Positions 38,976-63,116 of a stretch of 64,000 nt of DNA are shown piece after piece. Below the pieces are notes generated by a model, which was given only the letters and a program-made list of their open reading frames with translations, searched no databases and was not told the DNA's origin. The stretch spans positions 64,001-128,000 of IMG/VR virus record IMGVR_UViG_3300049491_000383; one strand, written 5' to 3'. Positions within the stretch are counted from its first letter, which is position 1. The number at the start of each line of letters is the position of its first letter. The position numbers were made by a program, and so were the translations under genes. This DNA is from a virus.

Positions 38976-39031
38976 TCAGAATGCTTATTTTCAAATTACA
39001 AGTTTGATTTTTAGTTGCTGAACGCATTCTT
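38976..39031 (-). ncRNA. stem + NUWCMGCAA element, copy D (Thr-UGU anticodon-loop hairpin)
   Basis: AGAAUGC-GUUCAGCAA...UCAAA-CUUGUAA-UUUGA...GCAUUCU-G. Confidence 0.75.
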
Positions 39032-40099
39032 CAAGACTTCGTAACTGCGTCGTCTGTATTTATCACATTTCTACGGTTAAATTAGAATGACTTAAACCGC
39101 TTTTTCACCAATTCTACAATGTACAAGGACTCTTAGAAATTCCAGATGTGCGCCGGATATTCGCCTGCACTCAATGGGCCAATTATTCCCACATACCAAC
39201 CGCCAACTTATTACACAATTTAGATCAGCGCGATGGGCACTTCGATATAATCACCTCGGTCGATAACCGATACTAATTAGGGTGAAAGATTTATATCAAA
39301 ACGTTTTGGTATCGGTCGGGCCGTACCGGTCACTCTAAACCTTTCTATCTATCCATTCTTCCCACTCTTTACAACCGGTGGGTGGACCATCAATTAAATC
39401 ATCATCAAATGGGCCTTGATTTTCTGCTAACGCAATCGGCCCAAATGGAGGATCCTCAATGAACTCGACGTTACCATCGAAATCATCATCAAATTCAAAA
39501 CCTGTTTCACCTACGTGATTCTTACCAACCCAATCCGACATTATAATAATCGGACCTGCAACTACCAGAAGGTAAACAGACATCAATGCTGCACCAATGG
39601 GTGTAATACCACTGGATCTTAACATCCTGTAGTCATCGAACATTAAAGCTTTACCTTGGTGTCGTGAACAATCAGTTCAATCTTTTCACGGATGACAGGG
39701 ACTTCAAAATTCTCAAACATTGCAACGGTCGAACGAAGTCTTTCCCACATGTCCTTATAGTCTTTAGAGTGCGATGTGAGGTAGAAAAAGTTCTTATCAC
39801 CGAGCACTGGATCGCGAGCAATCTCGGATGTCTTCCAATGACAAAGTTTTGCAATGTTGGTGGCTGTTGCTGCGTCGTCTGTGGATACAGTAATGTGGCA
39901 TTCAAACATTTTAGTCTTTCAGGTAGATTGTGGATTCATCTCTTGCAGTCTTAACAAGAAGTTCTCTCAGCACAGCAAGGTGACCAGAATCGCGAGTGTA
40001 CTTCAATTCTTCTCTTTCAAATTTTTGACGTGTCTGGATGGCCTCGTACAACATCATTTGAAACGTGCTTCTATAGACTTCCATATGTTTCTTTCTGTG

Positions 40100-40183
40100 T
40101 GGTGCCCAAGGTGAGATTCGAACTCACAATCCTCGCGGCGCTGGCTTCTAAGACCAGAGTGTATCCCGTTCCACCACTTGGGC
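40100..40183 (-). tRNA. tRNA-Leu(UAG)
   Basis: Loop CUUAGAA, CCA. Confidence 0.92.
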
Positions 40184-40593
40184 AATATTATGTCAAATCC
40201 CGAACTGAAACTTCTGTATCTGCCGTGACAAGTTCAATAGTGGGTTCAACCACATAGAACTGCCCATGTCCGTCCCGCCTGATATTTCCCATAATCTGCT
40301 GCGTAAGTACATCAACAGTTTCGGAAGCTCTCAAAGGAGCGGTTGCAGTTGTCAAGTTGTTCATTATAGATTCTATTCCTTATTTATGCAAGTTCACCAG
40401 CCGTGCTTGCGTTCTTCCTCTTCTTCCATTTCTGAAAGCATTTTTCGCCAGTTGTACCTGTTTCTTTCGTCACATTCTACATCACCGCAAAGGGCAACGC
40501 TTGTATCGCCAAACCAAAATGCTGCTGGCTTTTTTCTGCACATGTCGCAAAGACCCTTCGGACCTGACCAACCTTTTGTTTGAATTGTTTCAC

Positions 40594-40788
40594 TCATAGT
40601 CCAGACCTTTCTACTTCAGAACGAATTTTTTCTGTTAGATTCGTAATGATAATAGCACCTTCTCTAATCTCAAACTCAAGTTCATCGCCTTCTATCCAAC
40701 CATTCTTTTCAATGAGTTCTGGAGGAAATGGGAGAATCAATTCACCGTGCTCATCTTCCTCGATTGTCACTTCCCAAGAATTGTTCAT
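40594..40788 (-). CDS. AbrB/MazE-like small protein
   Basis: LILPFPPELIEKNGWIEGDELEF..REGAIII. Confidence 0.55.
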   Translation of the reverse strand: MNNSWEVTIEEDEHGELILPFPPELIEKNGWIEGDELEFEIREGAIIITNLTEKIRSEVERSGL

Positions 40789-41128
40789 TTTAGACCTGCT
40801 AGTTTTTCTATGTATGCTTTCGAAACCATTGGAGATATTCCCGACATTGCCATTGCCGAAGTAACATTCATCTCGGCTTGTTCGCCGCGACCCTGTTTCT
40901 CTTGATTTCTTAACTTCTCGACTACCAAGTCGGATTCATCGTATTCAAGTACAACTGTACCGGCAGGATTCTTTGAGTTTCGTTCTGTAGCATCCCTGAC
41001 GAAGGTTAAGGCTTCGTGATACCTCTTGCACTTGGTTACTTTTCGCCAAATGGAAAAGAAAGATTTTTCATTCTTCCTCTGAATCTTATATGGAAGCAAA
41101 TCATTATTGGTAGCAACAATTCTGTATT

Positions 41129-41524
41129 TCATCGCTCTAATATCCTGCGTGGCTTATTTGTTTTTCTAGAATAACGAATAGTGGCCCACGTACCACTTCT
41201 TAATACTTCATTATCTGTTTTTGGAGAACCAATAAGAAAATCAGTCTCATCAACTATTTTATGATCACGGGCCAAATAGGGCAAGGGATCGCGATATTCA
41301 TCACATTTCTTGAATGCTCTTTTCCCGTCTGATTGCGGGAGGTGACCTACAATCTTCACTTCAGGGAAGAATAGCCTGACAATGTCGTGCGCATCGGCGT
41401 CTGCACCAATACAATCTCCGTGGTGAAATTCAGTCACACCAAGTTCTTCCAACTTTAGAACAAACTGTTCTTTCTGGTGTTGGCTCATTCCTGCTTGTGT
41501 ACCTGTAAATCCTACCTTAGACAT
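41129..41524 (-). CDS. SLOG-superfamily (YspA/DprA-like) protein
   Basis: VGFTGT, HGDCIGAD, R...IVD, SGTWATIRY. Confidence 0.7.
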   Translation of the reverse strand: MSKVGFTGTQAGMSQHQKEQFVLKLEELGVTEFHHGDCIGADADAHDIVRLFFPEVKIVGHLPQSDGKRAFKKCDEYRDPLPYLARDHKIVDETDFLIGSPKTDNEVLRSGTWATIRYSRKTNKPRRILER

Positions 41525-41882
41525 ATCCGTGTATGCCTGCCAATTTCATTACTAAATAATCACCTTCTTCAAACTGACCAGCACCTTCACAATATTTGCA
41601 CTCAACGTGAACTTCCGAGTATCCCCACGGGCGTTGATGTGCTTCCATTTGTTCACCGGATCCATCGCAGTCCGGACATACAACGTATTTGAGTTCTTCA
41701 GTCATCCGAATGTTATTTTGAATGCTGTGGCATCGTCTTCATTCCTGAAGGCATATTGAAGATACGTGAAATTATCTTTACCCTTTCGGTATTGATAATT
41801 ACCATCACCGGCGCGAGTCTTTAGCCAATAACGAACGCCAGGATTCCAGTCCTGGCGTTTCATCTTTACCTTGTACGGAAAT

Positions 41883-42320
41883 TCAGACAAGGTCACGAAG
41901 TTCCAAATACATCTTGTGGTACTTTTCGATTCGCTTGACGTCTTTTTCGGTAACACCCTTCAAACGACGAATATCACTATTATGACGCAAATCGGCAAGC
42001 TTCACACGGATAGCATCCGGATTGGCCTTAATCTTTGCCAAGTATTCGTCATTGGTTTCTCCGGGCACTTTTGTCATTGAGCGAATGCCTTCAATGACAC
42101 GCTCGGAAAATCCCATCTCACGAAGCAGAGCATACGTAATGTTCTTGCGATCTTCAATCAGGTCATGACCTACAGCAATTTGCTGAAGCTCGTCATCATC
42201 CGACTTCAGATAATGCATAACCTTCAGACAATGAAGCACGTAAGGAACACCACCCTTGTCATAGATGCCATCGAATTCGGTTGTAACCAAAACGATCATT
42301 TTGTTCAGGTTATGCTTCAT
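41883..42320 (-). CDS. HD-domain small alarmone hydrolase-like (Mesh1/SpoT) protein
   Basis: DKGGVPYVLH, GHDLIED, VKLADLRHN. Confidence 0.8.
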   Translation of the reverse strand: MKHNLNKMIVLVTTEFDGIYDKGGVPYVLHCLKVMHYLKSDDDELQQIAVGHDLIEDRKNITYALLREMGFSERVIEGIRSMTKVPGETNDEYLAKIKANPDAIRVKLADLRHNSDIRRLKGVTEKDVKRIEKYHKMYLELRDLV

Positions 42321-42343
42321 AGAGTTCTCCTAGTGCTTACAGT

Positions 42344-42823
42344 TTAGCACTCAGAGTTCAATGTGTCAACAAGAACTTGGAAGGTGTATCTATCCGAGAA
42401 GAAACTAGGTGGCTTGATTTCGCCGTAATGTCGATACCAATCCGGACGTTGATTTAATCGTTCGATAATCCGATTAACATTTACCTTGATTTCATCGGGC
42501 GTGGGAAACCAATCATTACCAATATGTTCATCCGGCATCTCATGTAAGAAGGCTTCGAACGCATTGAAATCTGATATGTTGAAGTTTCTCTTCTTTAATT
42601 CTCGAGTAAGATTTTGATGGCGAATATACAACCAGCCCATCTTATTGTAGAAGAATTTGACATGCCCGGTTGAAAGTGTGTACTTTGCAGGTATGTCAGC
42701 CATTGAAACTGCTTTGGCTAGATTCTTTCTAACCTTTGCCGGAATCATCTTGAGCTCGCGCCATTCGGCAAATAAATGCTGATCGGCTAAATCTTCGGGC
42801 GGAACTAAATTTACTCTTGTCAT
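42344..42823 (-). CDS. denV: pyrimidine-dimer DNA glycosylase / endonuclease V
   Basis: MTRVNLV...LADQHLFAEWREL, GHVKFFYNK, WYR. Confidence 0.93.
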   Translation of the reverse strand: MTRVNLVPPEDLADQHLFAEWRELKMIPAKVRKNLAKAVSMADIPAKYTLSTGHVKFFYNKMGWLYIRHQNLTRELKKRNFNISDFNAFEAFLHEMPDEHIGNDWFPTPDEIKVNVNRIIERLNQRPDWYRHYGEIKPPSFFSDRYTFQVLVDTLNSEC

Positions 42824-42981
42824 ATGTTGGAACGAGGACTCGAACCTCGACTATTATAAAATAGGGACCGTGCTACCTTTACACTATTCCAAACTAAAAA
42901 GTTACTGCGTAGAGACTCGAACTCTATATACCATCCTTACATGCACGAGTGCAGTGGAGGAGCATCCAAGGCAGTAATAAT

Positions 42982-43057
42982 TGGCGCGTTGTCGGGGGAT
43001 CGAACCCCGTCACCTTCAGATTTAGAATCCGCCGCTCTCCCACTGAGCTAACAACGC
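42982..43057 (-). tRNA. amber suppressor tRNA (anticodon CUA)
   Basis: GCGUUGU/ACAACGC acceptor, loop UUCUAAA, G73-CCA. Confidence 0.85.
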
Positions 43058-43090
43058 ATGAGCCCATTTTACAGGCTCTTTCTCTTACTG

Positions 43091-43417
43091 TCAATAGGTG
43101 TGGCGATACAAATCCCATTTACGGAAAAATGCTCGTTCACGATCATTTATAACAGGTCGGGTACAGATTGCACTGTAACCCATACCATTATCGGGTTCAT
43201 AGAACATATAATGGTCGATTCCAGCACAATCAATCTTTCGTGAAATCATCTTCAAATCATCCTCATCTCTTGCGGAGAGAAGGATGAGACTTGAGACATC
43301 TTTATACTCCGAATGCGGAAGCATTTTGCCTGCTTCATGACAGGCATGTCCAAGTTGCACAATCTTCTGTTCAGGAGAAAGATCTTCCCGAATAAAAGTG
43401 TAGATGTATGAATTCAT
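43091..43417 (-). CDS. Pth2-like (peptidyl-tRNA hydrolase fold) protein
   Basis: YTFIREDL..EQKIVQLGHAC...LILL...FYEPD...SAIC. Confidence 0.7.
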   Translation of the reverse strand: MNSYIYTFIREDLSPEQKIVQLGHACHEAGKMLPHSEYKDVSSLILLSARDEDDLKMISRKIDCAGIDHYMFYEPDNGMGYSAICTRPVINDRERAFFRKWDLYRHTY

Positions 43418-43803
43418 TTGATTCCCGCATTCTTTGTTGTCTTTGCTGCTTCGAGCAACTGCTTCATTTCGTCTTCATCCAACCACTTTGCAAAGTTAGA
43501 ATACTTAATAGAATTCAATGCCGTCTCCAGTGCTCCGTAAGGGTATGCACCGTTCTCGAGCTTTACTTTGTTTGTGATGGGCTTGAAGGATCTATGCAGA
43601 CGCGACTTTGCACCTTCGGGCACCTGTTCCTTACGGAGAGCTCGATAGACGCACAATGCGGCAATATCTTCTTTGGTTACTTCGCGGGAGGCAGCAAGTG
43701 CTTTCCACTGTGGACGAATGTCCTTGATTGGCTTTGCAGCCTCCGGAGCTTGGGTTGTTGCTTCGGTCTTGGCCTCATCGGCCTTCTTCAAAAAGTTAAA
43801 CAT
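43414..43803 (-). CDS. hypothetical protein
   Basis: 129 aa, SFKPITN.VKLENG; coupled to the Pth2-like gene. Confidence 0.65.
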   Translation of the reverse strand: MFNFLKKADEAKTEATTQAPEAAKPIKDIRPQWKALAASREVTKEDIAALCVYRALRKEQVPEGAKSRLHRSFKPITNKVKLENGAYPYGALETALNSIKYSNFAKWLDEDEMKQLLEAAKTTKNAGIK

Positions 43804-44231
43804 GATTTATTCCTTAAAAATTAGTTTGATTAGATAACAAAATTGCAATGCATACGATCAAACGTTTTTAGGAACTATCTTCAAAAACCTACATCATGGT
43901 AGTATTCTCCGTTGGTTAATAGATTACAGTGTAGTAGAACTTTTCGGGTATAAACCGACTGTGCAAGAGGCTTTCACCATACACTCCTATACTACAACTG
44001 TATTTATGTCTTGAGTAAATTCTCCCGGTTCAAAGACGGGCGGGCAAGCCAGTGCTAATGCACTCCCCTAGCATACTCAAGACATAAACACAGATTATCA
44101 CTTTTAATGATAACATAGATCCTATCCGGTATCGCGCTTGCCGGCCTCCTGTTTCCAGGCGAACACTTGTTCTAAAGGATATGTGTTTATGAGCCACTAC
44201 TTTAACAATAGTGGCTCTACCTGTCAACTGG

Positions 44232-45173
44232 TTAGACTATTTCCAAACCAGTACCGCATTCACTGCAAAATTTAGCATTCGCCTTATTCACGTGTCCGCA
44301 TGTTGTGCATTTTTGCTTGGCTCTCGCAACCACTGGTGCAACAATATTGATTGCCCCGGCGCGGCCGGCCAAACGAAGAATGATAACGTGGGATTGTGCT
44401 TCAGACTTGAATCCATAGACTGTGTGGAACTTTTGTTCAACCTTTGAACCTGGTACAGTAATACCGACATCATTGGTAACAGTTACTTCTGCAGGTGCAG
44501 CAGTTTCTGTTGAGTCAAGTGTTGAGAAACTATCCATTGTTGCAGAGTTGTATGCTGCGTTTGATCCACTTACTGCATTTGCAGAAAATGTGGCATTCAT
44601 TGCCTGGGCCATTCCGCCACCATCATCGACGGCACCACGAATATTTGCAGACTTTACCGAAGCTGATCCAAGTTTCACATTGGACAGATTACCAGAGGTG
44701 CTCGATACAGAACCATAGTACGGACCGTTGAATGGTGGTGACCAGAACGACCTTCTATAGGTTGGATAATACCAATCATCGTAATGATGATGAACTGTAG
44801 TGGTAACAACTGGTTCTTCTTGTTCGAACCAAAACTCAACACGGACAACGCCGTCATCCATCTTGATACCACGTGGGCCATCTTCGATCTTTTGTGTGCG
44901 TTCAATGAACTTAAAGGCGTTGCCTTCGTCCATATTTCCGTTGCGGATAAAACGCTTCATTTCAACTTCAGCGTTTGCATTCACAATAATATTTTCACCA
45001 TCAAGGACATCTTGTCCATCGATGTGTAATGTGAACTTTGCTCTACGGGAGTTGAGGTTTTTAACTAGAACGCTGAATTCACTTCCAAACGGTAAGTGAA
45101 CTAGGTCTTTTGCTTCTTTGAGAATTTTGCCGTTGGCCTTGATAGCCACGACGAATTTTGAATCGTACATCAT
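44232..45173 (-). CDS. conserved phage protein with C-terminal zinc ribbon
   Basis: CTTCG...FCSECG; AAAGGA SD. Confidence 0.7.
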   Translation of the reverse strand: MMYDSKFVVAIKANGKILKEAKDLVHLPFGSEFSVLVKNLNSRRAKFTLHIDGQDVLDGENIIVNANAEVEMKRFIRNGNMDEGNAFKFIERTQKIEDGPRGIKMDDGVVRVEFWFEQEEPVVTTTVHHHYDDWYYPTYRRSFWSPPFNGPYYGSVSSTSGNLSNVKLGSASVKSANIRGAVDDGGGMAQAMNATFSANAVSGSNAAYNSATMDSFSTLDSTETAAPAEVTVTNDVGITVPGSKVEQKFHTVYGFKSEAQSHVIILRLAGRAGAINIVAPVVARAKQKCTTCGHVNKANAKFCSECGTGLEIV

Positions 45174-45282
45174 GTTTTCCTTTCTTACAGCACACTGAGT
45201 AAGTGCTCAATAGTTTAAAACTCAGTTAGGTACCCACTGTGGGCAAAACTATTTATCACCGGCACAAAATTATGCCAAAGAA

Positions 45283-45303
45283 AATGGGGCCGAAGCCCCA
45301 TGG
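45283..45303 (-). terminator. terminator after tmRNA
   Basis: UGGGGC-UUCG-GCCCCA followed by a U-tract. Confidence 0.7.
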
Positions 45304-45304
45304 T

Positions 45305-45683
45305 ATTTTGGTTTACAAGGTATAACCTACCCCGGAGTCTAGTGTTTCTTAGGCAGCTAGGAGCATCATGTCGCTATCAGCCAAGGCTGAAAGGTCAAGA
45401 GCTGTCTCAGTTGTAATTGCGTTTGCTTTTACGGTTTGTGCTTGATTTACGGTCATCGCCTACCGTGTTGTCCACTCTCGTACTCTTTACCCCGTCGAAT
45501 ACCTGGTCCGCCCCATTATTAAACATACCGTGAAAAATTCGAATTCTCTTTCCTGCCCATACAACAGGTGACCGTCTTTAAGCTGGAGTCGAACCAGCAA
45601 TAACCCATTCGATATGTTTAATGGTGGAGCGGGCGGGAATCGAACCCGCGTCCGGAACACTTTTCTGTTCGCTTCATACAACA
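45305..45683 (-). ncRNA. ssrA: two-piece (circularly permuted) tmRNA
   Basis: Acceptor piece ending GGUUCGAUUCCCGCCCGCUCCACCA (45622) precedes the coding piece starting GGGGCGGA..UUCGACGGG (45514); G3-U70; tag ANAITTETALDLSALADSDMMLLAA*. Confidence 0.9.
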
Positions 45684-45718
45684 ATAACTAACTACTTTAT
45701 AGCATTCTATTTATCTTG

Positions 45719-46228: not shown

Positions 46229-46238
46229 CTCGTTCCCC

Positions 46239-46907: not shown

Positions 46908-46925
46908 ATTGCCTCCATAAAAACT

Positions 46926-47003
46926 TGGCGGGGCGTACGGGATTCGAACCCGTGGTCTCTGACGTGACAGGCCAGCGCATTAGGCCAACTATGCTAACGC
47001 CCC
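46926..47003 (-). tRNA. tRNA-Asp(GUC)
   Basis: Loop CUGUCAC, CCA. Confidence 0.93.
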
Positions 47004-47006
47004 AAA

Positions 47007-47345
47007 TTTGATTACCCTATAGCCGGGGTTCTGTGCCTCTTTCGAGCGACAATCATTCATCTACGGTATTTAGCCGTCCTCCCCAGGTTTCAATCTGGAT
47101 CATAGGTGCCACAACCCGAACCCTCGGCGAACAGCGTCAACGAGTTCTGTTTGTGTTACTGCGGGATCGTTGTGGTACAAGCGTGTTATGAACGTATAGT
47201 GCAGGGTCTCATCGACCTGGGGCCACTCTATCCATTTCCTTATGGGCGTTCTATAGCGTATAACACTTCCACAGAGCGATGAACCCTGTTCTATGCAGGC
47301 CCGAACTTCCTCTACCTTTCAGCAGCGATTGTCCAGGTAATCAAA
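47007..47345 (-). ncRNA. rnpB: RNase P RNA
   Basis: P1 UUUGAUUACC/GGUAAUCAAA; GAGGAAGUUCGGGC (CR-I); AGAUGAAUGAUUGUC; ACAGAACCCCGGCUAUA (CR-V). Confidence 0.88.
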
Positions 47346-48304: not shown

Positions 48305-48325
48305 AATAGAACCTCTTCGTTTCTA

Positions 48326-55455: not shown

Positions 55456-55532
55456 GTTTCGCCATAATAGTATCTTATATTTATCAAGCCAAAAACTTTG
55501 GTCCGATAAATACACAACCAGGAGGACAAGGC

Positions 55533-56843: not shown

Positions 56844-57352
56844 CAAATCTGATTAGGCGTGTGGAAAAAGAGGATGCTGCAAAGATGCTCTCCGAAATTT
56901 CTACTATAGAAGATCTATTTGGTAATCATTATCGTGGAAACACCGCATACAAAGGCAGTGCTCTCGATGATGGGAAGTCCGTATGGATACACGAAGGAAA
57001 GCTCGATGATATTTTCCTTCTTGATGATAAGCTTCCCTTTGTATCTTCATACATTCGTGACACTCTAAATCTATTAGATTCAAAGAAGGTGGGTCGTGCC
57101 TATGTCTACAATTTGGGTCCAGGACTCGAAATATTTGAACACGTAGATAGGCAACAATACTATCACATTACAAAAAGATACCATATCTACTTTGATGTCA
57201 CAGATATTGAAATTAGACATAGTGGTCCTCCTGTTGAGTCGAATACCGTTATCTTTTTCAATCCTCTAGAACCACACGCATACAAGAACAATTCAGACAA
57301 ACCGCTAATCTTTATAGTATTCGATACTTACAATGAAACAAGAAATATTTAA
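56840..57352 (+). CDS. 2OG-Fe(II) oxygenase, AspH-like
   Basis: EHVD, RYHI, FNPLEPHAYKN..IVFD. Confidence 0.75.
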   Translation: MTNLIRRVEKEDAAKMLSEISTIEDLFGNHYRGNTAYKGSALDDGKSVWIHEGKLDDIFLLDDKLPFVSSYIRDTLNLLDSKKVGRAYVYNLGPGLEIFEHVDRQQYYHITKRYHIYFDVTDIEIRHSGPPVESNTVIFFNPLEPHAYKNNSDKPLIFIVFDTYNETRNI

Positions 57353-58229
57353 GGTACAAGAGCTGTATCCAAAAGAGGGAATGCTTGTCATTTGGTCATT
57401 GGGCAATTTCTGCCCATACAAGTGTACCTATTGCAGTCCGCACTATAATGATGGACGAGATCCATATCACTCTTTAGAAAATATTAATTCTACATTGGCT
57501 CTGATTCCAAAGCAGTCTAGGATTATATTTTCGGGTGGTGAGCCAACCTATCATCCTAACTTTGAAGAAATATTAGATAACAAACCCGACCATTTTACAT
57601 ATGGTGTAATCAGTAATGGCGCAAGACCGTATGCGTTTTGGGAAAGGGTATTATCAAAACTATCACCAATCATTCTTACATTCCATTCCGAATTTGCAAC
57701 ACTAGATCGATTTCTAGAAACTGCAATGCTTTGCAAGCCCAGACTTCAGAGAATTAATCTAACAATGATTCCATGGATGTGGGAAGAGAGTGTGAATGCA
57801 TATGAGACATTTACAAAATTCGGATTACCTGTATCTCCAAAACCACTTGTGAAAGATTTTGGATTTAAATCAAGTTCTCTAATTGATCAATACCTACCCG
57901 AACAGGTAGAGTGGATTAAGAGCAAGAACAACGACGGTGAATTAAAGTACATCGGGCTGTATAATTCAAAAGGCGATCTTCTAAAGAAGACTAATCCATC
58001 TGAGATGTTATCCTCTGGAGAGACAAACTTCCTCGGGTGGCAATGCCATACCCCATCAAAAACTTTGTACATAAACACCGACGGGAAAATCTATGACACC
58101 TCGTGCAAGCAGAGACGCCTTTTAGGCACAGTATCCACCGGTTTTACGCTACAAACAGACCCTGTCACCTGCCAGCAAGACTTCTGCTGGTGTCACCCAG
58201 ACATAGCTCCACTAAAAATCAAGCCATAA
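57333..58229 (+). CDS. radical SAM protein with C-terminal Cys cluster
   Basis: CPYKCTYC, FSGGEPT, GWQC...SC...C...CWC. Confidence 0.9.
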   Translation: MKQEIFKVQELYPKEGMLVIWSLGNFCPYKCTYCSPHYNDGRDPYHSLENINSTLALIPKQSRIIFSGGEPTYHPNFEEILDNKPDHFTYGVISNGARPYAFWERVLSKLSPIILTFHSEFATLDRFLETAMLCKPRLQRINLTMIPWMWEESVNAYETFTKFGLPVSPKPLVKDFGFKSSSLIDQYLPEQVEWIKSKNNDGELKYIGLYNSKGDLLKKTNPSEMLSSGETNFLGWQCHTPSKTLYINTDGKIYDTSCKQRRLLGTVSTGFTLQTDPVTCQQDFCWCHPDIAPLKIKP

Positions 58230-58260
58230 AAAAAGCTCGTTACCTTTCGATAACGAGCTA
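58229..58260. terminator. terminator hairpin between convergent units
   Basis: AAAAAA-AGCTCGTTA...TAACGAGCT. Confidence 0.65.
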
Positions 58261-58263
58261 GAA

Positions 58264-58339
58264 TGGCACCCCGCTAGGGATTCGAACCCCAACCGCGCAG
58301 CTTTGGAGGCCGGCATGCTGCCAATAACACTTGCGAGAT
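58264..58339 (-). tRNA. tRNA-Trp(CCA)
   Basis: Loop CUCCAAA, G73-CCA. Confidence 0.88.
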
Positions 58340-58344
58340 ATATG

Positions 58345-58419
58345 TGGAGCCGCCAAGAGGAATCGAACCCCTATTTGAACGTTCGTAGCGTTCTGTCCTA
58401 TCCGTTGAACGATGGCGAC
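58345..58419 (-). tRNA. tRNA-Arg(ACG)
   Basis: Loop CUACGAA, CCA. Confidence 0.9.
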
Positions 58420-58437
58420 ATGTAATTATTTATGATT

Positions 58438-58512
58438 TGGCAGGGGAGGAAGGGATCGAACCTTCTAACCTGGTTTCAAAGACCAGTATGCATACCATTG
58501 CATATCACCCCA
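58438..58512 (-). tRNA. tRNA-Gln(UUG)
   Basis: Loop CUUUGAA, CCA. Confidence 0.85.
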
Positions 58513-58522
58513 ACTGTATAGA

Positions 58523-58581
58523 CAGAATACGTTTTATTTTCAATTAAAAGTTGATTTTTTGAAATTGCTGAATGTATTCTT
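58523..58581 (-). ncRNA. stem + NUWCMGCAA element, copy E (Lys-UUU anticodon-loop hairpin)
   Basis: AGAAUAC-AUUCAGCAA...UCAA-CUUUUAA-UUGA...GUAUUCU-G. Confidence 0.75.
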
Positions 58582-58910
58582 TAGAAAACTTTACTTTACG
58601 AAGTTGGGTTGACCTTCTCGGGCTTTCCACTTCAAATGGATCCATCCTTTTGGTACATAATGACTAATTCCAGTCTCGTCAAACAGACGATGACCTCCTG
58701 CACTAACCGATAACTTCGATGGCTTTGAAATTGTTACAACTTCTCCGCCAGGAAATGTGTATGAGCGGTAATCTTCGCTCGAAATATCTGAAAAGATATT
58801 GCTTGATTCATTAACAAATGGTGTCATAAGACCTCCTAATTGATTAAAACACTTACTTGCCTTGGAAATCAAGGACGAAGTGTATTGAATCATATTTATC
58901 TGATTTCTAT

Positions 58911-58987
58911 TGGTACCCCTAGTTGGATTCGAACCTACAACCAACAGATTTTAAGTCTGTCCGCACTACCGATTAGCGTATAGGGGC
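58911..58987 (-). tRNA. tRNA-Leu(UAA), short variable region
   Basis: Loop CUUAAAA, 77 nt, CCA. Confidence 0.85.
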
Positions 58988-59172
58988 ATAAAAGATCAGT
59001 ATGAGTTCGAATTTTGCTGTGAACCTGCAGCCGGTTATTCCACAGTTGAGGGCTATGCCTTGCCACAGATGCACCCCGGCTCGACAATATTCGACCAACC
59101 TTCCAGGAGCTTGCTCACAATGTCCTGGATAAAGCCCGGTGTGACTGTGTCTCCCCATACTGAAGGGCAAAA

Positions 59173-59264
59173 TGGAGGCCAGGGTTGGATTCGAACCAAC
59201 GATGTATACCTGGGTAGTTTCCCGCTTTGCAGACGGGTGCGTTCGGCCGCTTTGCTACCTGGCC
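59173..59264 (-). tRNA. tRNA-Cys(GCA) with long variable arm
   Basis: Loop CUGCAAA, U73-CCA, ~20-nt variable region. Confidence 0.82.
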
Positions 59265-59414
59265 ATATTCTGACTGCTAATGTATTAGACCGTTGCAGTA
59301 CATATGCAACAGTATACCACCTGCATTGCAAGTGAGCAAGATCAATCTAATAACGTAGTAACTTCGTTTATAATCCGACGTATACCACCGCTGTAGCACA
59401 TACAGGTCGGCTTC

Positions 59415-59792
59415 TTAGGTTGCGTCTGCGCCCAATTCTTCCTGAAGCTTCTTGAACATTTTGATCTTGGATGCCTTATCCTTTAGTTCCTTCTTGAACT
59501 TACGCTCAAGTGCAGCTTCTTCTCTCTTCTTTTTTTCCTCTTCGGCCTTCTTGGCTTCAGCGTTAGCAATTGCTAAGTAATCCTTGAGGGTTCTTGCAAC
59601 GAATGCCTTTGTATCTAACGGCTGTTCAAGAATTTGAAATCCCATTCTTGGTGCTGCGAATTGCAGAGCCTTAAACTCTTCATCAGTAACTGATTCCCAT
59701 TCAGTAATGCTAGTTACAATCTTGTTGTAATCTTCACCATCATATCCAGAATAGAATTCACGTGATGTGATAATTGCAATCTTGTGTGTCAT
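59415..59792 (-). CDS. hypothetical protein
   Basis: MTHKIAIITS..., AAGGA SD; upstream in-frame extension overlaps RNA genes. Confidence 0.6.
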   Translation of the reverse strand: MTHKIAIITSREFYSGYDGEDYNKIVTSITEWESVTDEEFKALQFAAPRMGFQILEQPLDTKAFVARTLKDYLAIANAEAKKAEEEKKKREEAALERKFKKELKDKASKIKMFKKLQEELGADAT

Positions 59793-59808
59793 AGTTTTCC
59801 TTATATAG

Positions 59809-59873
59809 TCAGAGTGCGCTTTCTTTTCAAGATAATGGTTTGAAATTGTTTTAGGTTTGCGGTAAACACTCTT
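59809..59873 (-). ncRNA. stem + NUWCMGCAA element, copy G
   Basis: AGAGUGU-UUACCGCAA...UUUCAA-9 nt-UUGAAA...GCACUCU-G. Confidence 0.7.
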
Positions 59874-59880
59874 TAGAAAG

Positions 59881-59964
59881 TGGTGGGGCGTCCAGGTAAC
59901 GATCCTGGCGGGCCGAAGCAACGGATTTACAGTCCGCTCCATCTCCTTAGTGGTCTACCACCCC
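59881..59964 (-). tRNA. tRNA-Tyr(GUA)
   Basis: Loop CUGUAAA, variable arm, CCA. Confidence 0.88.
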
Positions 59965-60500
59965 GTATTGGTCAGCAGAACGTTGCCAGCGTGGAGAAAC
60001 ATTGTCTATGAGAACAAGCGGTTCTACTCCAATATCTATACACCATCTGCTTCAGCTATTGCTGCCATCAGGCATAATGCAAGAACTCTTCGCTTTTGGT
60101 TTGTTGGTTCCTTCGGTGAACCAAACGTTCCTCTATACAATGTATTATTGTATTTTTCATTTTGAAACAAGTAACACATCGCCATAGCTTCCGGAATGTT
60201 GTAGTTGAAGAATTCCATTGACATGGGCTTCTTATATTTCACCATGTAGATAGCTGTGCAACAAAACAAAGCCTTTCCAGACTCCACTAGCTTTGCTGCT
60301 TCAAGGTATAGTGTACTTGTCTTCATTTATCAATCTCAATGTCTTCGCCACGAAGTTTTGCAACTGTCGCAGCTTCTTTACACTTCTTTGATTTACAAAA
60401 GTAAGTCCTTCCTATGCCCTTGCGATCATTTGGCTGCAAGGAAAACATATACTTTCTGCAATTATCACAGTGAACATCAATTGTTCTGCTTGTCATATTA

Positions 60501-60576
60501 TGGTAGGCCCTGACAGCATCGAACTGTCATCACTCCGCTTAAAAGGCGGGTCTCTAGCCATTTGAGTTAAGGACCC
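60501..60576 (-). tRNA. tRNA-Lys(UUU)
   Basis: Loop CUUUUAA, CCA. Confidence 0.85.
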
Positions 60577-60585
60577 ATTGTATTG

Positions 60586-60660
60586 TGGTAGGACCGGGGA
60601 ATTTCGAAATCCCGACCAACGGATTAAAAGTCCGCTGCTCTTCCTCTGAGCTACGATCCC
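60586..60660 (-). tRNA. tRNA-Lys(UUU), second copy
   Basis: Loop CUUUUAA, CCA. Confidence 0.88.
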
Positions 60661-60974
60661 TCAGATTATTTCGATGGTTTAGTTAGGACTTCGTGTCCAT
60701 CTCCTTGTTGTCCCGGTGTTGCCATTGTAGTTCCTTGTGACGCGATGCGCCTGTTAAGTAATTCTCTTAAATCTTTCATGTTGCCTGCCTGTGCTCCGGT
60801 CATCCAATGATTAAGACTGGGTGAAAGATAATATGCAAGCTTTCTATATAGGTCGCTATCGCCTTCTGTCTCCTCAACATGCTTCTGAAGAAGCAATGCA
60901 TTAGACAGGGCAATACTGAGACTGTTCTCAATGTGATCGATATAATTCTTCACAACGTCCATTGTAATCCTTAG

Positions 60975-61063
60975 TGGCGGATGATAGAGGATTTGAACCT
61001 CTGGACCGTTTATAGGTCGACGGTTTAGCAAACCGTTGCAATAAGCCTCTCTGCCAATCATCC
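60975..61063 (-). tRNA. tRNA-Ser(GCU)
   Basis: Loop UUGCUAA, long variable arm, CCA. Confidence 0.9.
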
Positions 61064-61214
61064 AAATTTTAAATCCTTGTAGGGAGTCGAACCCTGAGAG
61101 TATCAGTCTCTAGACCTTAGCCGTGTACCTACTAGATTTCGGGTTGCCTTTCTCTGATACATACTCGGCATGCGGTCCTACTTCTCGTTCGGCGATCTAA
61201 CAAGGACAAGTCTA

Positions 61215-61457
61215 TTATAGAGTCGTTGCTTTCTCAGAAGCAATCGACTCCAGATGCTTGCGAATGTAACGCATGAATAGCATCGCTTTATCTTCTCTTA
61301 GAAATACACCGTCTCCCACATCCTCAATAGGAACAGGGAACTCAAAACCATCAACTTCTTTGTCAAATGCCTCAACGCGGTAGAATAATTCTCCCTTGCG
61401 GTACATTACAAATTGAACACGGTTACCAGAGGCAACGTATGATTTTAAAGTTGGCAT
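61215..61457 (-). CDS. conserved small phage protein
   Basis: FEFPVPIEDVGDGVFLREDKAMLFMRYIRK. Confidence 0.65.
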   Translation of the reverse strand: MPTLKSYVASGNRVQFVMYRKGELFYRVEAFDKEVDGFEFPVPIEDVGDGVFLREDKAMLFMRYIRKHLESIASEKATTL

Positions 61458-61579
61458 ATCTTTCCTTTATTATTGAATTCACAGCGCCAGGAATCGAACC
61501 TAGAGTACCAATATGAACGGAATCGAACCGTCTCTTCGGGCTGCGCGCGGTTCCCGGGCACCAAGCCTCACTGTGAAAC

Positions 61580-61656
61580 TGGCAAGGGATCTCGGACTCG
61601 AACCGAGGCTTTCATGGCTCAGAACCACGCTACTCTTCCCGTTAAGCTACTCCCCA
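61580..61656 (-). tRNA. tRNA-Gln(CUG)
   Basis: Loop UUCUGAG, CCA. Confidence 0.8.
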
Positions 61657-61741
61657 ATTGTCTTTGGTGCCCCCGGGCTTACACCTACTACCTCATGTGG
61701 CCTACATGAGCGTTCTTCCATTCCAGGATGAGAGCATTATT

Positions 61742-61817
61742 TGGCATGCCTACGGGGAATCGAACCCCGCTTTACACCGTGAAAGGGTGTCGTCCTAAAC
61801 CGATAGACGATAGGCAC
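61742..61817 (-). tRNA. tRNA-Glu(UUC)
   Basis: Loop CUUUCAC, CCA. Confidence 0.9.
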
Positions 61818-61823
61818 AATGTA

Positions 61824-61895
61824 TGGCAAGGGCGATGAGAATCGAACTCATTCCAACCAGGTTCAAAGCCTAGTGTCTCTCCAAGAGTCGCCCCA
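61824..61895 (-). tRNA. tRNA-Gln(UUG), minimal D arm
   Basis: Loop CUUUGAA, CCA. Confidence 0.7.
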
Positions 61896-61901
61896 ATTGT
61901 A

Positions 61902-61978
61902 TGGCATCCCCATTGGGATTCGAACCCAACTTTCCACCTTGAGAGGGTAGCGTCCTGAAACCACTAGACGATGGAGAT
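61902..61978 (-). tRNA. tRNA-Glu(CUC)
   Basis: Loop CUCUCAA, CCA. Confidence 0.88.
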
Positions 61979-61989
61979 ATAAATATATC

Positions 61990-62439
61990 GTGTTAAAACA
62001 AATAGATACAGATCCATTCATTGAATATCCAGAACTGCTCGACATCTGGCCACATAGGCGAGTCGAAATACTCCGTGATGTACAGGATTGTTTGGAACAT
62101 CCAGAACTTGAGCGAATGTTTCTAATAATTTACAACAACAAACCGGTAGGTATCACAGGTTATTACCAATATGATAACCAAGTCGGTCTAAACTGGCACG
62201 GTATTCTTAAAGAATACAGCGGGTATGGATACGGACTAGCAGCACTTAAGGAATTACTTCCTCTTGCCATTGCCCATTATCCCAATGCTACATATCTAAT
62301 TGAAGAATTACCTGCAATCTCTGAAAAAGAACTTAGTAGTTTCTTTCTAAAGGCCGGCTTTATGAAAACAAACATACTTGTTGATAAACCGTGGATCACA
62401 GACGATACCGATTGGATCGAATATCGTCTAAAACTCTAA
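61990..62439 (+). CDS. GNAT acetyltransferase
   Basis: KPVGITG, GILKEYSGYGYG, FFLKAGF; TATAAATA upstream. Confidence 0.75.
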   Translation: MLKQIDTDPFIEYPELLDIWPHRRVEILRDVQDCLEHPELERMFLIIYNNKPVGITGYYQYDNQVGLNWHGILKEYSGYGYGLAALKELLPLAIAHYPNATYLIEELPAISEKELSSFFLKAGFMKTNILVDKPWITDDTDWIEYRLKL

Positions 62440-62629
62440 TCCCAACCAAGCGTTACCTCTGTAACATACAGATGGCACATGACGCTCTTATAATTCAGCC
62501 TAATTAGGAGGTTGGCACCATTTTTATAAGTGATGACTCCACGATTATATCGTTTATGTATGGCCATCCACGTGGGGACCCGTACCTTGTCACCTACTTG
62601 AAATATGTGCCGTGCCATTGTTATCCTTA

Positions 62630-62700
62630 TGGACCCACCGGAGGGATTCGAACCCCCTACATGACGTTCGTAGCGTCTTGGCTATTCCAATAGCGGTGAG
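62630..62700 (-). tRNA. tRNA-Arg(ACG), short/atypical
   Basis: Loop CUACGAA, 71 nt, CCA. Confidence 0.65.
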
Positions 62701-62972
62701 ATTAATAATATTTATCAAATACAGTCAGTTGACGTCTTTGCTTACTATAGTATTCTCTCTCAAGTCTGTCAACATCGGCTGCGTCTTGCGGATGGCCGGC
62801 TGTGATGTAAGCTTCCAGGTTGTGATGGTAGCTAGGCTCTGCGAAAATTTCTTTGATGTAAGCGATAAAGTTTGAAAACATAATGTGCTCCTTAGTATTG
62901 ATAACTATTTACCAATATTTGCTGCATTGCAGCATTTATATCAGTATAAACACTAAGAACCACAAAAGTCAA

Positions 62973-63048
62973 TGGTCGCGTATGGTGGATTCGAACCACC
63001 GTATTCATTCTTATGAGGAATGCGCTCTAGCCTCTCTGCCAATACGCG
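62973..63048 (-). tRNA. tRNA(CAU) Met or Ile2
   Basis: Loop CUCAUAA, CCA. Confidence 0.85.
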
Positions 63049-63057
63049 ATAAAATAA

Positions 63058-63116
63058 TCAGGATACCTTTTTGCTTTTTTACAGAAAAGTTGATTTGGGT
63101 TGCGGAATGTATCCTT
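63058..63116 (-). ncRNA. stem + NUWCMGCAA element, copy F (Tyr-GUA-like loop)
   Basis: AGGAUAC-AUUCCGCAA...UUUU-CUGUAAA-AAAG...GUAUCCU-G. Confidence 0.72.

What the first reader, a model, noticed from the sequence alone, without database searches (positions are those of the whole stretch)
38976..63116. Mini-RNAs displaying bare Thr, Lys and Tyr anticodon loops: candidate decoys for anticodon nucleases
Seen: the cargo of three ~57-nt copies is a single hairpin with a 7-nt loop. Copy D has UCAAA-CUUGUAA-UUUGA, copy E has UCAA-CUUUUAA-UUGA and copy F has UUUU-CUGUAAA-AAAG (weak stem, register ambiguous). The loops match exactly the anticodon loops of this phage's own tRNA-Thr(UGU) at 20384, tRNA-Lys(UUU) at 60501/60586 and tRNA-Tyr(GUA) at 59881. 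Known: PrrC and PARIS AriB cut tRNA-Lys, and colicin E5 and some retron effectors target tRNA-Tyr. Inference: these may be protein-stabilised anticodon mimics that titrate or sense host tRNA-cleaving defences or tRNA-modifying enzymes. Copy G has a 9-nt non-canonical loop.
Basis: partly seen in the sequence, partly recalled or inferred. Interest (0 to 1): 0.88.

Follow-up and report, generated by a model that had tools for sequence, protein, structure and literature searches.

The report
Anticodon-arm mimics on phage Ro60-partner RNAs
Four roughly 60-base RNA genes in this giant phage's tRNA cluster share a conserved "handle" that travels with a Ro60-shaped phage protein, and three of them display exact copies of the threonine, lysine and tyrosine tRNA anticodon loops, so they look like protein-docked baits for enzymes that read or cut tRNA anticodons, a use that is still untested.

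Summary
Copies D, E and F carry small hairpins whose 7-nt loops equal the anticodon loops of the phage's own tRNA-Thr(UGU), tRNA-Lys(UUU) and tRNA-Tyr(GUA). Copy G has a 9-nt loop.

All four belong to one RNA family: AAAG start, 7-bp covarying terminal stem, UUCAGCAA/UACAGCAA motif, variable cargo, CUGA/CUGU end. A covariance model found this family beside homologues of the window's DUF2828/vWA gene in 36 of 37 related viral loci, always on the gene's strand. That protein is predicted with high confidence to fold like Ro60.

Among 43 distinct minis from this and related phages, 22 carry a hairpin with a canonical 7-nt loop (U33, purine 37), against a mean of 1.95 in shuffles. Lys, Thr, Tyr and Asn loops persist while stems change. 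Some long members are complete tRNAs permuted at position 26/27.

The best reading is Y-RNA-like partner RNAs of a phage Ro60 paralogue that display tRNA parts. The decoy role for anticodon nucleases is plausible but untested. It is weakened by variable position 33, non-anticodon and empty members, and AriB's need for D-loop contact.

This scan found the same family and idea before on other DNA. I found no published description.

The parts
38976..39032 (-). Mini RNA D (57 nt): handle plus hairpin UCAAA-CUUGUAA-UUUGA (hairpin 38991-39007), a Thr(UGU)-type loop. The handle's 3' end is followed by an AAGGA ribosome-binding-site-like sequence and the ATG at 38960 of a 49-aa ORF.
   Evidence: covariance models R1 59.0 bits and R2 48.9 bits; Rfam RF01414 25.6 bits; loop equals own tRNA-Thr loop; ORF.
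58522..58582 (-). Mini RNA E (61 nt): handle plus hairpin UCAA-CUUUUAA-UUGA (hairpin 58540-58554), a Lys(UUU)-type loop. tRNA-Gln starts 10 nt downstream.
   Evidence: R1 61.4 bits; Rfam RF01414 34.8 bits, E 0.0083, full length; loop equals own tRNA-Lys loops; orthologues keep the loop with changed stems.
59809..59874 (-). Mini RNA G (66 nt): handle plus hairpin UUCAA-ACCAUUAUC-UUGAA with a 9-nt non-anticodon loop. It starts 7 nt after tRNA-Tyr and is followed by a ribosome-binding-site-like sequence and an ATG.
   Evidence: 29.4 bits, E 7.5e-4; 37.2 bits; the same 9-nt loop occurs in two relatives (L070, L101).
63058..63117 (-). Mini RNA F (60 nt): handle plus hairpin UUUU-CUGUAAA-AAAG (hairpin 63074-63088), a Tyr(GUA)-type loop with a weak stem. 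It lies between a tRNA-like gene and tRNA-Met.
   Evidence: R1 59.9 bits; loop equals own tRNA-Tyr loop.
23624..23747 (-). Family member A (124 nt): the same handle with a cargo of T arm, acceptor-like stem closed by a loop, and D arm (YrlA topology). It lies directly upstream of the Ro60-like gene.
   Evidence: R1 58.1 bits; Rfam YrlA RF02553 35.8 bits, E 3.9e-4, below the gathering score of 69.
23802..23904 (-). Family member B (103 nt): the same handle with a non-tRNA cargo whose 3' part is conserved in relatives.
   Evidence: R1 59.7 bits; relatives.
24331..24590 (-). Probable third upstream member (260 nt). It has an AAAG start, a 7-bp end pairing, a UACAGCAA motif and a CUGU end. Neither covariance model reported it.
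   Evidence: Script scan and reading only; absent.
22175..23608 (-). DUF2828 + DUF7788 (vWA) protein of 477 aa, predicted to have a Ro60 fold with an invariant MIDAS motif. It is the presumed protein partner of the handle.
   Evidence: D269, S271, S273, T340, D372 invariant; pLDDT 93.3, pTM 0.92; top 12 listed PDB matches all Ro60/TROVE, E 7.6e-10 to 4.3e-6.
26019..27104 (-). RNA ligase gene (PF09414 with a PHA02142 OB-fold domain), 2.4 kb upstream of the Ro60-like gene on the same strand. Listed as context only.
   Evidence: E 3.6e-16 and 1.5e-39.

Best explanation
D, E, F and G are small RNAs of about 57-66 nt, probably cut out of the phage's long tRNA-cluster transcripts. They belong to a Y-RNA-like family. 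A conserved handle most likely docks them onto the phage's Ro60-fold protein (DUF2828/vWA, window 22175-23608). The handle consists of an AAAG start, a 7-bp terminal stem, a single-stranded UUCAGCAA motif, an A-rich 3' linker and a CUGA/CUGU end.

The variable part of each RNA displays a piece of tRNA. In D, E and F it is a bare anticodon arm (Thr UGU, Lys UUU, Tyr GUA). In other members it is a tRNA elbow or a whole tRNA permuted at position 26/27.

The displayed arm most likely acts as bait. It would bring a protein that recognises that anticodon arm to the Ro60-like ring or hold it there. That protein could be a host tRNA-cutting defence enzyme or a tRNA-modifying or repair enzyme.

Shown: the sequences, the family, its structure by covariation, its linkage to the gene, the protein's predicted fold, and the conservation of the loops. 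Inferred: RNA-protein binding, processing into discrete RNAs, and the bait function.
For: Family and structure:
- The terminal stem is paired in 98.1% of cells, with 109 cells changed on both sides (shuffles: mean 29.4; 0 of 500 reached 109). Slid controls pair in 28-40% of cells (on a model-fitted alignment of 59 members).
- Among 99 distinct members, 56 start with AAAG, 48 end in CTGA and 34 in CTGT. The motif is TTCAGCAA in 33 and TACAGCAA in 23.

Linkage to the gene:
- Model R1 gave 112 matches at E<=1 in 37 viral loci chosen only for a DUF2828 homologue (41-87% identity). All 112 are on the gene's strand.
- The matches cluster just before or just after the gene. 31 of 37 loci have a match at E<=0.01 and 36 of 37 at E<=1.
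- Four complete 363-385 kb relatives have 6-8 copies each.

Protein:
- The AlphaFold2 model built on 139 sequences has pLDDT 93.3.
- The 12 best listed Foldseek PDB matches are all Ro60/TROVE over the full length (TM 0.36-0.63). The next matches are bare vWA domains at E>=4e-3.
- A profile search of PDB sequences puts TROVE/Ro60 in the top 4.

Anticodon arms:
- The Lys loop CUUUUAA is kept in 5 distinct copies with three different stems (UCAA/UUGA, UUUGA/UCAAA, UUUCA/UGAAA).
- The Thr, Tyr and Asn loops recur in the same way.
- 7 of 31 long members with a T loop have a canonical anticodon arm 4-5 nt before the T stem (shuffles: mean 0.76, maximum 5).
- One orthologous permuted tRNA shows Ser UGA, Thr UGU or Tyr GUA in three phages.

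Context and precedent:
- An RNA ligase gene lies 2.4 kb away.
- The Ro60 of Thermus phage phiLo binds phage Y-like RNAs and host PNPase and dampens it (passages of PMC12135203).
Against: - There is no evidence that the RNAs are made or processed. No RNA run is listed for this DNA.
- No binding data exist for any DUF2828 protein.
- Minis D-G lie 15-40 kb from the gene, so their link to it rests on the shared handle alone.
- The hairpins are thermodynamically weak.
- Some minis have no anticodon-like loop. G and its orthologues have a conserved 9-nt loop, several have 5-, 8- or 9-nt loops, and 5 relatives have empty 36-37-nt handles.
- Position 33, invariant U in tRNAs, is C or A in three Tyr-type relatives.
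- D's orthologue in one relative has a 9-nt loop instead.
- The mycobacteriophage locus tested has the protein but no handle RNA within 2.5 kb. One complete 110-kb relative has no match at E<=0.01.
- The shuffle control keeps composition only, and the minis are related to each other.
Confidence: 0.6

Rival explanations
1. Decoy or sponge in the narrow sense. The bare anticodon arms titrate host anticodon nucleases such as PrrC, PARIS AriB or retron-Eco7 PtuAB and so protect host and phage tRNAs. The Ro60-like protein stabilises the RNAs.
For: - The recurrent mini types in this phage group are Lys UUU, Thr UGU, Asn GUU and Tyr GUA.
- AriB's main targets are exactly tRNA-Lys(UUU), Thr(UGU) and Asn(GUU).
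- Retron-Eco7 degrades tRNA-Tyr (abstract start only).
- All 10 distinct Lys, Thr(CUUGUAA) and Asn minis that I read keep U39, giving the UAAU that AriB needs. Two read UAAUCA, the same letters as the E. coli cleavage site quoted (read by eye).
- Anticodon letters swap between orthologues while the loop frame is kept, as expected in an arms race.
Against: - AriB also contacts the D loop, and a U16C change impairs cleavage. A bare arm may therefore bind poorly.
- A decoy must compete with abundant host tRNAs.
- Position 33 varies.
- Many members display other anticodons (Pro, Gly, Phe, Glu, Ser, Ile, Cys, Met, Arg), a non-anticodon loop or nothing.
- The host of this phage and its defence systems are unknown.
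- A/U-rich loops may be favoured by composition alone.
- Nothing was tested at the bench.
Confidence: 0.25
2. tRNA repair or quality-control scaffold. The Ro60-like ring with its tRNA-like RNAs recruits tRNA-handling enzymes (RNA ligase, end-healing, modification enzymes, exonucleases) to damaged or misfolded phage or host tRNAs. The anticodon arms are docking sites for such enzymes rather than traps for nucleases.
For: - An RNA ligase gene lies 2.4 kb upstream on the same strand.
- The window also carries about 40 tRNA genes, a permuted tmRNA and an RNase P RNA-like gene.
- Bacterial Ro60 and YrlA genes lie beside the RtcB ligase gene. This is recalled, and it fits the title and abstract start of PMC7790460.
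- In Deinococcus, Y RNA tethers Ro60 to PNPase (abstract start of PMC4201824).
Against: The diversity of displayed anticodons does not point to one enzyme. No end-healing enzyme was looked for. There are no data on binding.
Confidence: 0.15
3. Cis-acting leader or operator. The handle in front of a gene lets the Ro60-like protein, or RNA processing, control translation or stability of the downstream message. The apical hairpin is a structural cap inherited from a tRNA-derived ancestor.
For: - D, G and A end a few bases before an AAGGA-type ribosome-binding-site-like sequence and an ATG.
- In 5 relatives an empty 36-37-nt handle sits 13-14 nt before the start of the DUF2828 gene. This arrangement resembles an autoregulatory operator.
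Against: - E and F are followed by tRNA genes, not by coding genes.
- Loop letters are conserved while stems and linkers change, which a mere cap would not need.
- This reading can hold alongside the best explanation.
Confidence: 0.1
4. The anticodon look is chance or decay. The minis are eroded remnants of longer tRNA-like members, with AU-rich hairpins that happen to resemble anticodon loops.
For: The cargo is very A/U-rich, the stems are short (4-5 bp) and the fold energies are not exceptional. Some orthologues have lost the canonical loop (G001 252771).
Against: 22 of 43 minis are canonical against a mean of 1.95 in shuffles (maximum 8 of 2000). Identical loops occur with different stems in several phages. 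Loops are identical to the phage's own tRNA loops in 3 of its 4 minis.
Confidence: 0.05

Closest known systems
Ro60 (Rsr) with Y RNAs, especially bacterial and phage YrlA/YrlB (Rfam RF02553; Chen et al. 2014, PMC4201824, passages read) and Thermus phage phiLo Ro60 with Yrl1/Yrl2 (PMC12135203, passages read)
   Same: - Small RNAs are encoded beside, and on the strand of, a ring-protein gene with a Ro60 fold plus vWA domain.
- The 5' and 3' ends pair into a stem next to a conserved single-stranded motif.
- A second, variable module mimics tRNA (T arm, D arm, acceptor-like stem closed by a loop).
- Several RNAs accompany each protein gene.
   Different: - The protein belongs to Pfam DUF2828/DUF7788, not TROVE. 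PF05731 finds nothing in this genome.
- The handle motif is UUCAGCAA/UACAGCAA. The YrlA motif GNCGAAN0-1G occurs in 0 of 99 members.
- YrlA model scores stay below the gathering score of 69 (35.8, 40.1 and 28.7 bits).
- Cargo types include bare anticodon arms, complete permuted tRNAs and empty handles.
- Members are scattered through the tRNA cluster up to 40 kb from the gene.
Class I RNAs of dictyostelid social amoebae (Rfam RF01414; Kjellin et al. 2021, PMC7919456, passages read)
   Same: - Length is about 60 nt, with an AAG start and a short covarying stem joining the 5' and 3' ends.
- A conserved motif of about 11 nt sits right after the 5' stem strand.
- The remainder is variable, and the end is CUGU, with its C paired to the conserved 5' G.
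- The Rfam model matches minis full length: E 34.8 bits (E 0.0083) and D 25.6 bits, and 8 further minis of relatives at 26.7-33.7 bits.
   Different: - All scores are below the gathering score of 41.5.
- The hosts are phages of bacteria, not amoebae.
- The amoebal RNAs have their own upstream promoter element and a known RRM-protein partner (Rnp1A).
- The paper reports them as unique to Dictyostelia.
- I could not test whether dictyostelids have a DUF2828-type protein, so common descent is open and convergence is at least as likely.
Phage-encoded escape tRNAs against tRNA-cutting defences (T5 tRNA-Lys/Thr/Asn against PARIS AriB; PMC12409363, passages)
   Same: Both concern the same anticodon identities (Lys UUU, Thr UGU, Asn GUU), are encoded in phage tRNA clusters, and plausibly answer the same host enzymes.
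   Different: The escape tRNAs are complete, chargeable tRNAs that replace the cut ones. The minis have no acceptor end, T arm or D arm and cannot decode.

Membership tests
Y RNA / YrlA (Ro60 partner RNAs) | Encoded within about 4 kb of a Ro60 orthologue gene, on the same strand (Chen et al. 2014) | tested here: met
   This is met for the family: all 112 matches in the 37 loci are on the gene's strand and cluster at the gene's ends. In the window, members A and B lie directly upstream. The minis D-G themselves lie 15-40 kb away and qualify only through the shared handle.
Y RNA / YrlA (Ro60 partner RNAs) | Partner protein is a TROVE-domain Ro60 | tested here: inconclusive
   Pfam TROVE gives no match. 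The predicted fold matches Ro60 over its full length, and the profile's best PDB sequence matches are TROVE/Ro60 at E 0.012-0.09. The fold is the same but the sequence family is different.
Y RNA / YrlA (Ro60 partner RNAs) | GNCGAAN0-1G motif near the 5' end (Rsr binding) | tested here: not met
   0 of 99 distinct members carry it anywhere.
Y RNA / YrlA (Ro60 partner RNAs) | tRNA-like domain with T arm, D arm and acceptor-like stem-loop; score at or above the Rfam gathering score of 69 | tested here: not met
   Minis D-G have no T or D arm. Member A has the arms but scores 35.8 bits. The best relative scores 40.1 bits.
Y RNA / YrlA (Ro60 partner RNAs) | Physical binding to the Ro60 protein | not testable with these tools
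   Needs EMSA, RIP or CLIP.
Dictyostelid Class I RNA (RF01414) | AAG start, short terminal stem, ~11-nt motif after the 5' stem strand, CUGU end, length about 60 nt | tested here: inconclusive
   All these features are visible in D-G and relatives. Model scores are 25.6-34.8 bits, below the gathering score of 41.5.
Dictyostelid Class I RNA (RF01414) | DUSE promoter element about 60 nt upstream; dictyostelid genome | tested here: not met
   The DNA is a virus record from a freshwater sediment or lake metagenome. I did not search for DUSE.
tRNA anticodon stem-loop | 5-bp stem, 7-nt loop, U33, purine 37 | tested here: met
   D meets all four features. E has a 4-bp stem. F has a 4-bp stem including a G-U pair and an ambiguous register. 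G does not meet them because its loop is 9 nt.
tRNA anticodon stem-loop | Part of a complete tRNA with an acceptor end | tested here: not met
   Neither ARAGORN nor the Rfam tRNA model calls these sites. The cargo is a single hairpin.

The most novel reading that the evidence does not exclude
The handle RNAs and the DUF2828 Ro60-like ring form a programmable display system. Phages would swap the displayed tRNA part, down to the three anticodon letters, to trap whichever anticodon-reading defence nuclease their hosts use. The unexplained Class I RNAs of Dictyostelium would be the eukaryotic branch of the same handle-protein partnership.
Probability: 0.1. Interest if true: 0.92.

Novelty: new variant of a known kind. 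Interest (0 to 1): 0.72.

Why it matters
Ro60-Y RNA particles are known, but what the tRNA-like half of bacterial Y RNAs binds is an open question. This family offers a natural series that runs from a whole tRNA through the elbow alone to the anticodon arm alone, all on one handle.

The partner protein family is large. Homologues occur in 710 cultured-phage records, including E. coli Felixounavirus phages, and there are at least 6177 representative sequences in metagenomes.

If the anticodon arms are baits for tRNA-cutting defence enzymes, this would be a new RNA-based counter-defence alongside escape tRNAs. If they recruit repair or modification enzymes, they give a handle on phage control of the tRNA pool. 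Either way the hypothesis can be tested directly in laboratory E. coli systems.

Tried and rejected
- **Fold energies.** RNAfold on single copies gave weak, non-diagnostic folds.

- **Early scans.** Two script scans for the handle were far too permissive and produced only noise. A stricter scan and covariance models replaced them.

- **Structure prediction.** A single-sequence prediction of the protein failed (pLDDT 35.2). It was replaced by a model built on an alignment.

- **PDB sequence search.** phmmer of the protein against PDB sequences gave nothing meaningful.

- **Promoters and terminators.** Scans around the minis found no more sites than shuffles. I therefore claim no private transcription unit.

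- **Expression.** No RNA holder was listed for this DNA. The three DNA holders are freshwater metagenomes, one of them possibly the source. I did not lay reads.

- **Permuted pre-tRNA idea.** I considered that the permuted members are true pre-tRNAs matured by circularisation, as in Cyanidioschyzon (recalled). I rejected this as the main reading: the acceptor-like stem is closed by a conserved loop, there is no CCA, and bacteria lack the splicing endonuclease. It is not excluded for every member.

- **Transposon idea.** I considered a miniature transposon with inverted ends. I rejected it because the end pairing covaries between copies.

- **Dictyostelium protein.** I could not test whether Dictyostelium has a DUF2828-type protein. 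The listed hits are all close phage or bacterial relatives. The literature searches gave nothing. Avesson et al. 2011, on Class I RNA-binding proteins, is not held.

- **Not in print.** This rests on searches (DUF2828: 5 papers, none on RNAs; Ro60, Y RNA, bacteriophage, YrlA, tRNA-like; Class I RNA). It also rests on the absence of an Rfam family. Supplements of the papers were not seen and could list such RNAs.

- **Cultured phages.** In E. coli phage garuso the three handle RNAs are not annotated. Their cargos are not canonical anticodon arms.

Full report
**Setting.** The window is bases 64001-128000 of a 136-kb viral contig that CheckV estimates as 35% complete. ARAGORN tRNA genes and a tmRNA, all on the minus strand. 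Rfam adds a permuted tmRNA and, below threshold, an RNase P RNA. Complete relatives are 363-385 kb with terminal repeats. This is therefore a giant, tRNA-rich phage.

**The observation.**
- D: UCAAA-CUUGUAA-UUUGA at 39007-38991.
- E: UCAA-CUUUUAA-UUGA at 58554-58540.
- F: UUUU-CUGUAAA-AAAG at 63088-63074.

A fourth copy, G, lies at 59874-59809 and has a 9-nt loop. I extracted the anticodon loops of all 33 called tRNAs by coordinate. The three mini loops are identical to those of the phage's own tRNA-Thr(UGU), tRNA-Lys(UUU) (both copies) and tRNA-Tyr(GUA). The stems differ. Single-sequence folding does not single the hairpins out, so the case rests on comparison.

**One family with one handle.** D, E, F and G share the same frame:
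- an AAAG start;
- a 7-nt strand that pairs with the 3' end;
- the motif (R)UUCMGCAAY;
- an A-rich linker;
- the 3' strand of the stem;
- a GA or GU end.

The same frame encloses larger cargos at 23747-23624 and 23904-23802, and at three places just beyond the window. A covariance model with only the terminal stem as structure (R1) recovered the seven training copies. It also found G (29.4 bits) and one more member in the contig.

On 59 members from this and related phages, the stem is paired in 98.1% of cells. There are 109 double-sided changes against 29.4 in shuffles, and pairing is 28-40% when the partner is slid. The alignment was fitted to the model, which favours pairing.

Across 99 distinct members:
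- 56 start with AAAG.
- 82 end in CTGA or CTGT.
- The motif is TTCAGCAA in 33 and TACAGCAA in 23.

**Link to a protein gene.** The member at 23747-23624 ends 15 nt before the start of a 477-aa ORF. That ORF matches Pfam DUF2828 and DUF7788, the latter a vWA-type domain.

I fetched 37 viral loci solely because they encode a relative of this protein at 41-87% identity. R1 found 112 matches at E<=1 in them:
- All 112 are on the gene's strand.
- They stack immediately upstream or downstream of the gene.
- 31 of 37 loci have a match at E<=0.01.
- 36 of 37 loci have a match at E<=1.

A second model (R2) found 6-8 copies in each of four complete relatives. In each genome the copies lie on one strand, partly at the gene and partly scattered in tRNA clusters. 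It found 0-9 copies in ten further records.

The protein family is large:
- at least 7999 sequences scored at E<=1e-5 in one database;
- 6177 representatives at E<=0.001 in another;
- matches in 710 cultured-phage records, some annotated "Ro-like RNA binding protein".

In E. coli phage garuso, three handle RNAs sit unannotated in the tRNA cluster after the gene. A mycobacteriophage locus had none.

**The protein folds like Ro60.** With an alignment of 139 diverse homologues, the AlphaFold2 model reached pLDDT 93.3 and pTM 0.92.

The 12 best listed Foldseek matches in the PDB are all Ro60/TROVE proteins over the full length. They include Xenopus and human Ro60, Deinococcus Rsr and Thermus phage phiLo Ro60 (E 7.6e-10 to 4.3e-6). 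The next matches are isolated vWA domains.

The MIDAS residues of the vWA domain are invariant. Pfam's TROVE model itself does not match. I therefore call the protein a Ro60 paralogue of a separate sequence family. Binding of the handle to this protein is an inference from gene linkage and from the analogy with Ro60 and Y RNAs.

**What the cargos are.** Member A has a T arm, an acceptor-like stem closed by a loop, and a D arm, in that order. Rfam's YrlA model matches it partially (35.8 bits, E 3.9e-4, gathering score 69).

Other long members are complete tRNAs permuted between D arm and anticodon arm:
- 7 of 31 members with a T loop carry a canonical anticodon arm exactly 4-5 nt before the T stem (shuffles: mean 0.76).
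- One orthologous element with the same handle and the same conserved acceptor-closing loop shows Ser UGA in this phage, Thr UGU in a second and Tyr GUA in a third.
- Just beyond the window, a CCA-ending tRNA-like gene carries the handle inserted at the same 26/27 junction, with the terminal stem capped by a loop.

The minis are the shortest cargo class, consisting of the anticodon arm alone.

**Are the mini loops more than chance?** I collected 43 distinct minis of 75 nt or less.
- 29 have a hairpin of at least 4 bp with a 7-nt loop (shuffles: mean 10.0, maximum 18 of 2000).
- 22 also have U at position 2 and a purine at position 6 (shuffles: mean 1.95, maximum 8).
- The script's choice missed copy E's true hairpin, so 22 is a slight undercount.
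- The minis include orthologues, and the shuffle keeps only composition, so these are not probabilities.

The pattern within groups is more telling.
- The Lys loop CUUUUAA is identical in five distinct copies whose stems are UCAA/UUGA, UUUGA/UCAAA or UUUCA/UGAAA.
- Thr CUUGUAA occurs with three different stems (UCAAA/UUUGA, UUCAA/UUGAA, UUUGA/UCAAA).
- Tyr CUGUAAA occurs with three stems (UUUU/AAAG, UUCA/UGAA, CCAA/UUGG) and Asn CUGUUAA with two (UUACA/UGUAA, UUUCA/UGAAA).
- Linkers vary freely.

Single examples show Gly UCC, Phe GAA, Glu UUC, Ser UGA, Pro UGG and Ile GAU-type loops.

Several things cut against a faithful mimic:
- Three Tyr-type relatives have C or A at position 33.
- D's orthologue in one relative has a 9-nt loop.
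- G's 9-nt loop ACCAUUAUC is itself conserved in two relatives.
- Five relatives carry 36-37-nt empty handles directly before the DUF2828 start codon.

**Function.** The shown facts fit Y-RNA logic: a constant module docks on the ring protein and a variable module engages something else.

For the phiLo phage, Ro60 and its Y-like RNAs bind host PNPase and reduce its activity. That is a precedent for a phage Ro60 particle holding a host enzyme.

AriB of PARIS depletes tRNA-Lys(UUU), Thr(UGU) and Asn(GUU), and retron-Eco7 degrades tRNA-Tyr (abstract start). These are the four recurrent mini types here.

It loses from several points:
- AriB relies on a D-loop contact and cuts in the stem.
- The family displays many other anticodons and non-anticodon cargos.
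- A decoy must compete with abundant host tRNAs.
- The host is unknown.

PrrC and colicin E5 specificities are recalled, not checked.

A repair-scaffold role is suggested by the RNA ligase gene 2.4 kb away. A leader or operator role is suggested by the handles that sit just before ribosome-binding-site-like sequences and by the empty handles before the protein's own gene. These roles are not mutually exclusive. My odds are:
- about 0.6 that these are Ro60-paralogue partner RNAs displaying anticodon-arm baits;
- about 0.25 for the narrow anticodon-nuclease decoy reading.

**Comparison with known families.** The closest known kind is Ro60 with YrlA-type Y RNAs.
- The defining YrlA motif GNCGAAN0-1G is absent in 0 of 99 members.
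- Rfam's YrlA model stays below threshold.
- The protein is not a Pfam TROVE member.

I therefore treat this as a new variant, not a member.

The handle also resembles dictyostelid Class I RNAs feature by feature: AAG start, short covarying end stem, motif after the 5' strand, variable rest, CUGU end, about 60 nt. Rfam's Class I model matches ten minis full length at 25.6-34.8 bits, below its gathering score of 41.5. Whether that reflects descent or convergence is open.

**Earlier notes of this scan.** First-stage notes on this genome already proposed the Ro60-like protein, the handle family, the permuted tRNA and the Lys decoy. Follow-up reports on at least eight other genomes reached the same family, the anticodon-arm cargo and the Class I resemblance. 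One later check gave the bold reading low odds, and I lowered my own odds for it accordingly.

Noticed in passing
window 47004-47344 (-): An RNase P RNA (bacterial class A) look-alike scores 68.5 bits (gathering score 100, E 1e-18, full-length model). It lies directly upstream of tRNA-Asp. A relative has one at 86 bits (L076 573-908).
   Followed up: no
window 45349-45683 (-) and 42982-43057 (-): A permuted (two-piece) tmRNA scores 115.4 bits. A tRNA with a CUA anticodon, which would read the amber stop codon, is also present. Whether the phage recodes TAG was not examined.
   Followed up: no
window 31805-31893, 33864-33932, 42825-42893, 15183-15245, 62625-62700, 63180-63270, 61480-61560 (all -): Further tRNA-like genes were missed by ARAGORN. 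Three get weak Rfam tRNA or tRNA-Sec scores. The others were seen only by eye, including one stretch with two T-arm-like hairpins in a row.
   Followed up: partly
L007 2560-2679 and 2693-2798 (-) (contig 130560-130798, beyond the window): Two tandem family members. One is a complete tRNA permuted at position 26/27 with a Ser(UGA)-type anticodon arm and an acceptor-like stem closed by a loop that is conserved in two relatives.
   Followed up: yes
L007 about 5535-5650 (-) (contig about 133535-133650): A CCA-ending tRNA-like gene with a Val(UAC)-type anticodon arm has the handle inserted between D arm and anticodon arm. The terminal stem is capped by a GUCA loop. This is the un-permuted counterpart of the family.
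   Followed up: partly
relatives L022 2857-2892, L026 2952-2988, L027 2952-2987, L028 1762-1797, L029 2952-2988: Empty handles of 36-37 nt with no cargo lie 13-14 nt before the start codon of the DUF2828 gene. They may be an autoregulatory operator.
   Followed up: no
5' flanks of D, E, F, G (window) and of minis in relatives: A U-rich UUUCU-type stretch almost always precedes the AAAG start, often right after the CCA end of a tRNA. It may be a processing site.
   Followed up: no
window 23802-23904 (-) and relatives: Member B carries a non-tRNA cargo whose 3' part (CCUUUCYGGAGGGGAAAG...CUCGCC) is strongly conserved across relatives. Its structure and role are unknown.
   Followed up: no
L098 2238-2658 (-) (relative G010): A GOLLD RNA scores 196 bits (gathering score 150) inside a relative's tRNA cluster, near a Tyr-type mini. 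None passed threshold in this window.
   Followed up: no
L112 4875-4946 (+) (E. coli phage garuso): One handle RNA of this cultured phage carries a UUUCAA...UUUGAAA hairpin whose loop resembles copy G's 9-nt loop. The non-anticodon G-type cargo may therefore be old and widespread. This was read by eye.
   Followed up: no
window 20513-21334, 21683-22081, 18720-19880 (all -): Downstream of the Ro60-like gene lie a DNA/RNA non-specific endonuclease (PF01223), an HNH endonuclease and a radical SAM protein.
   Followed up: no
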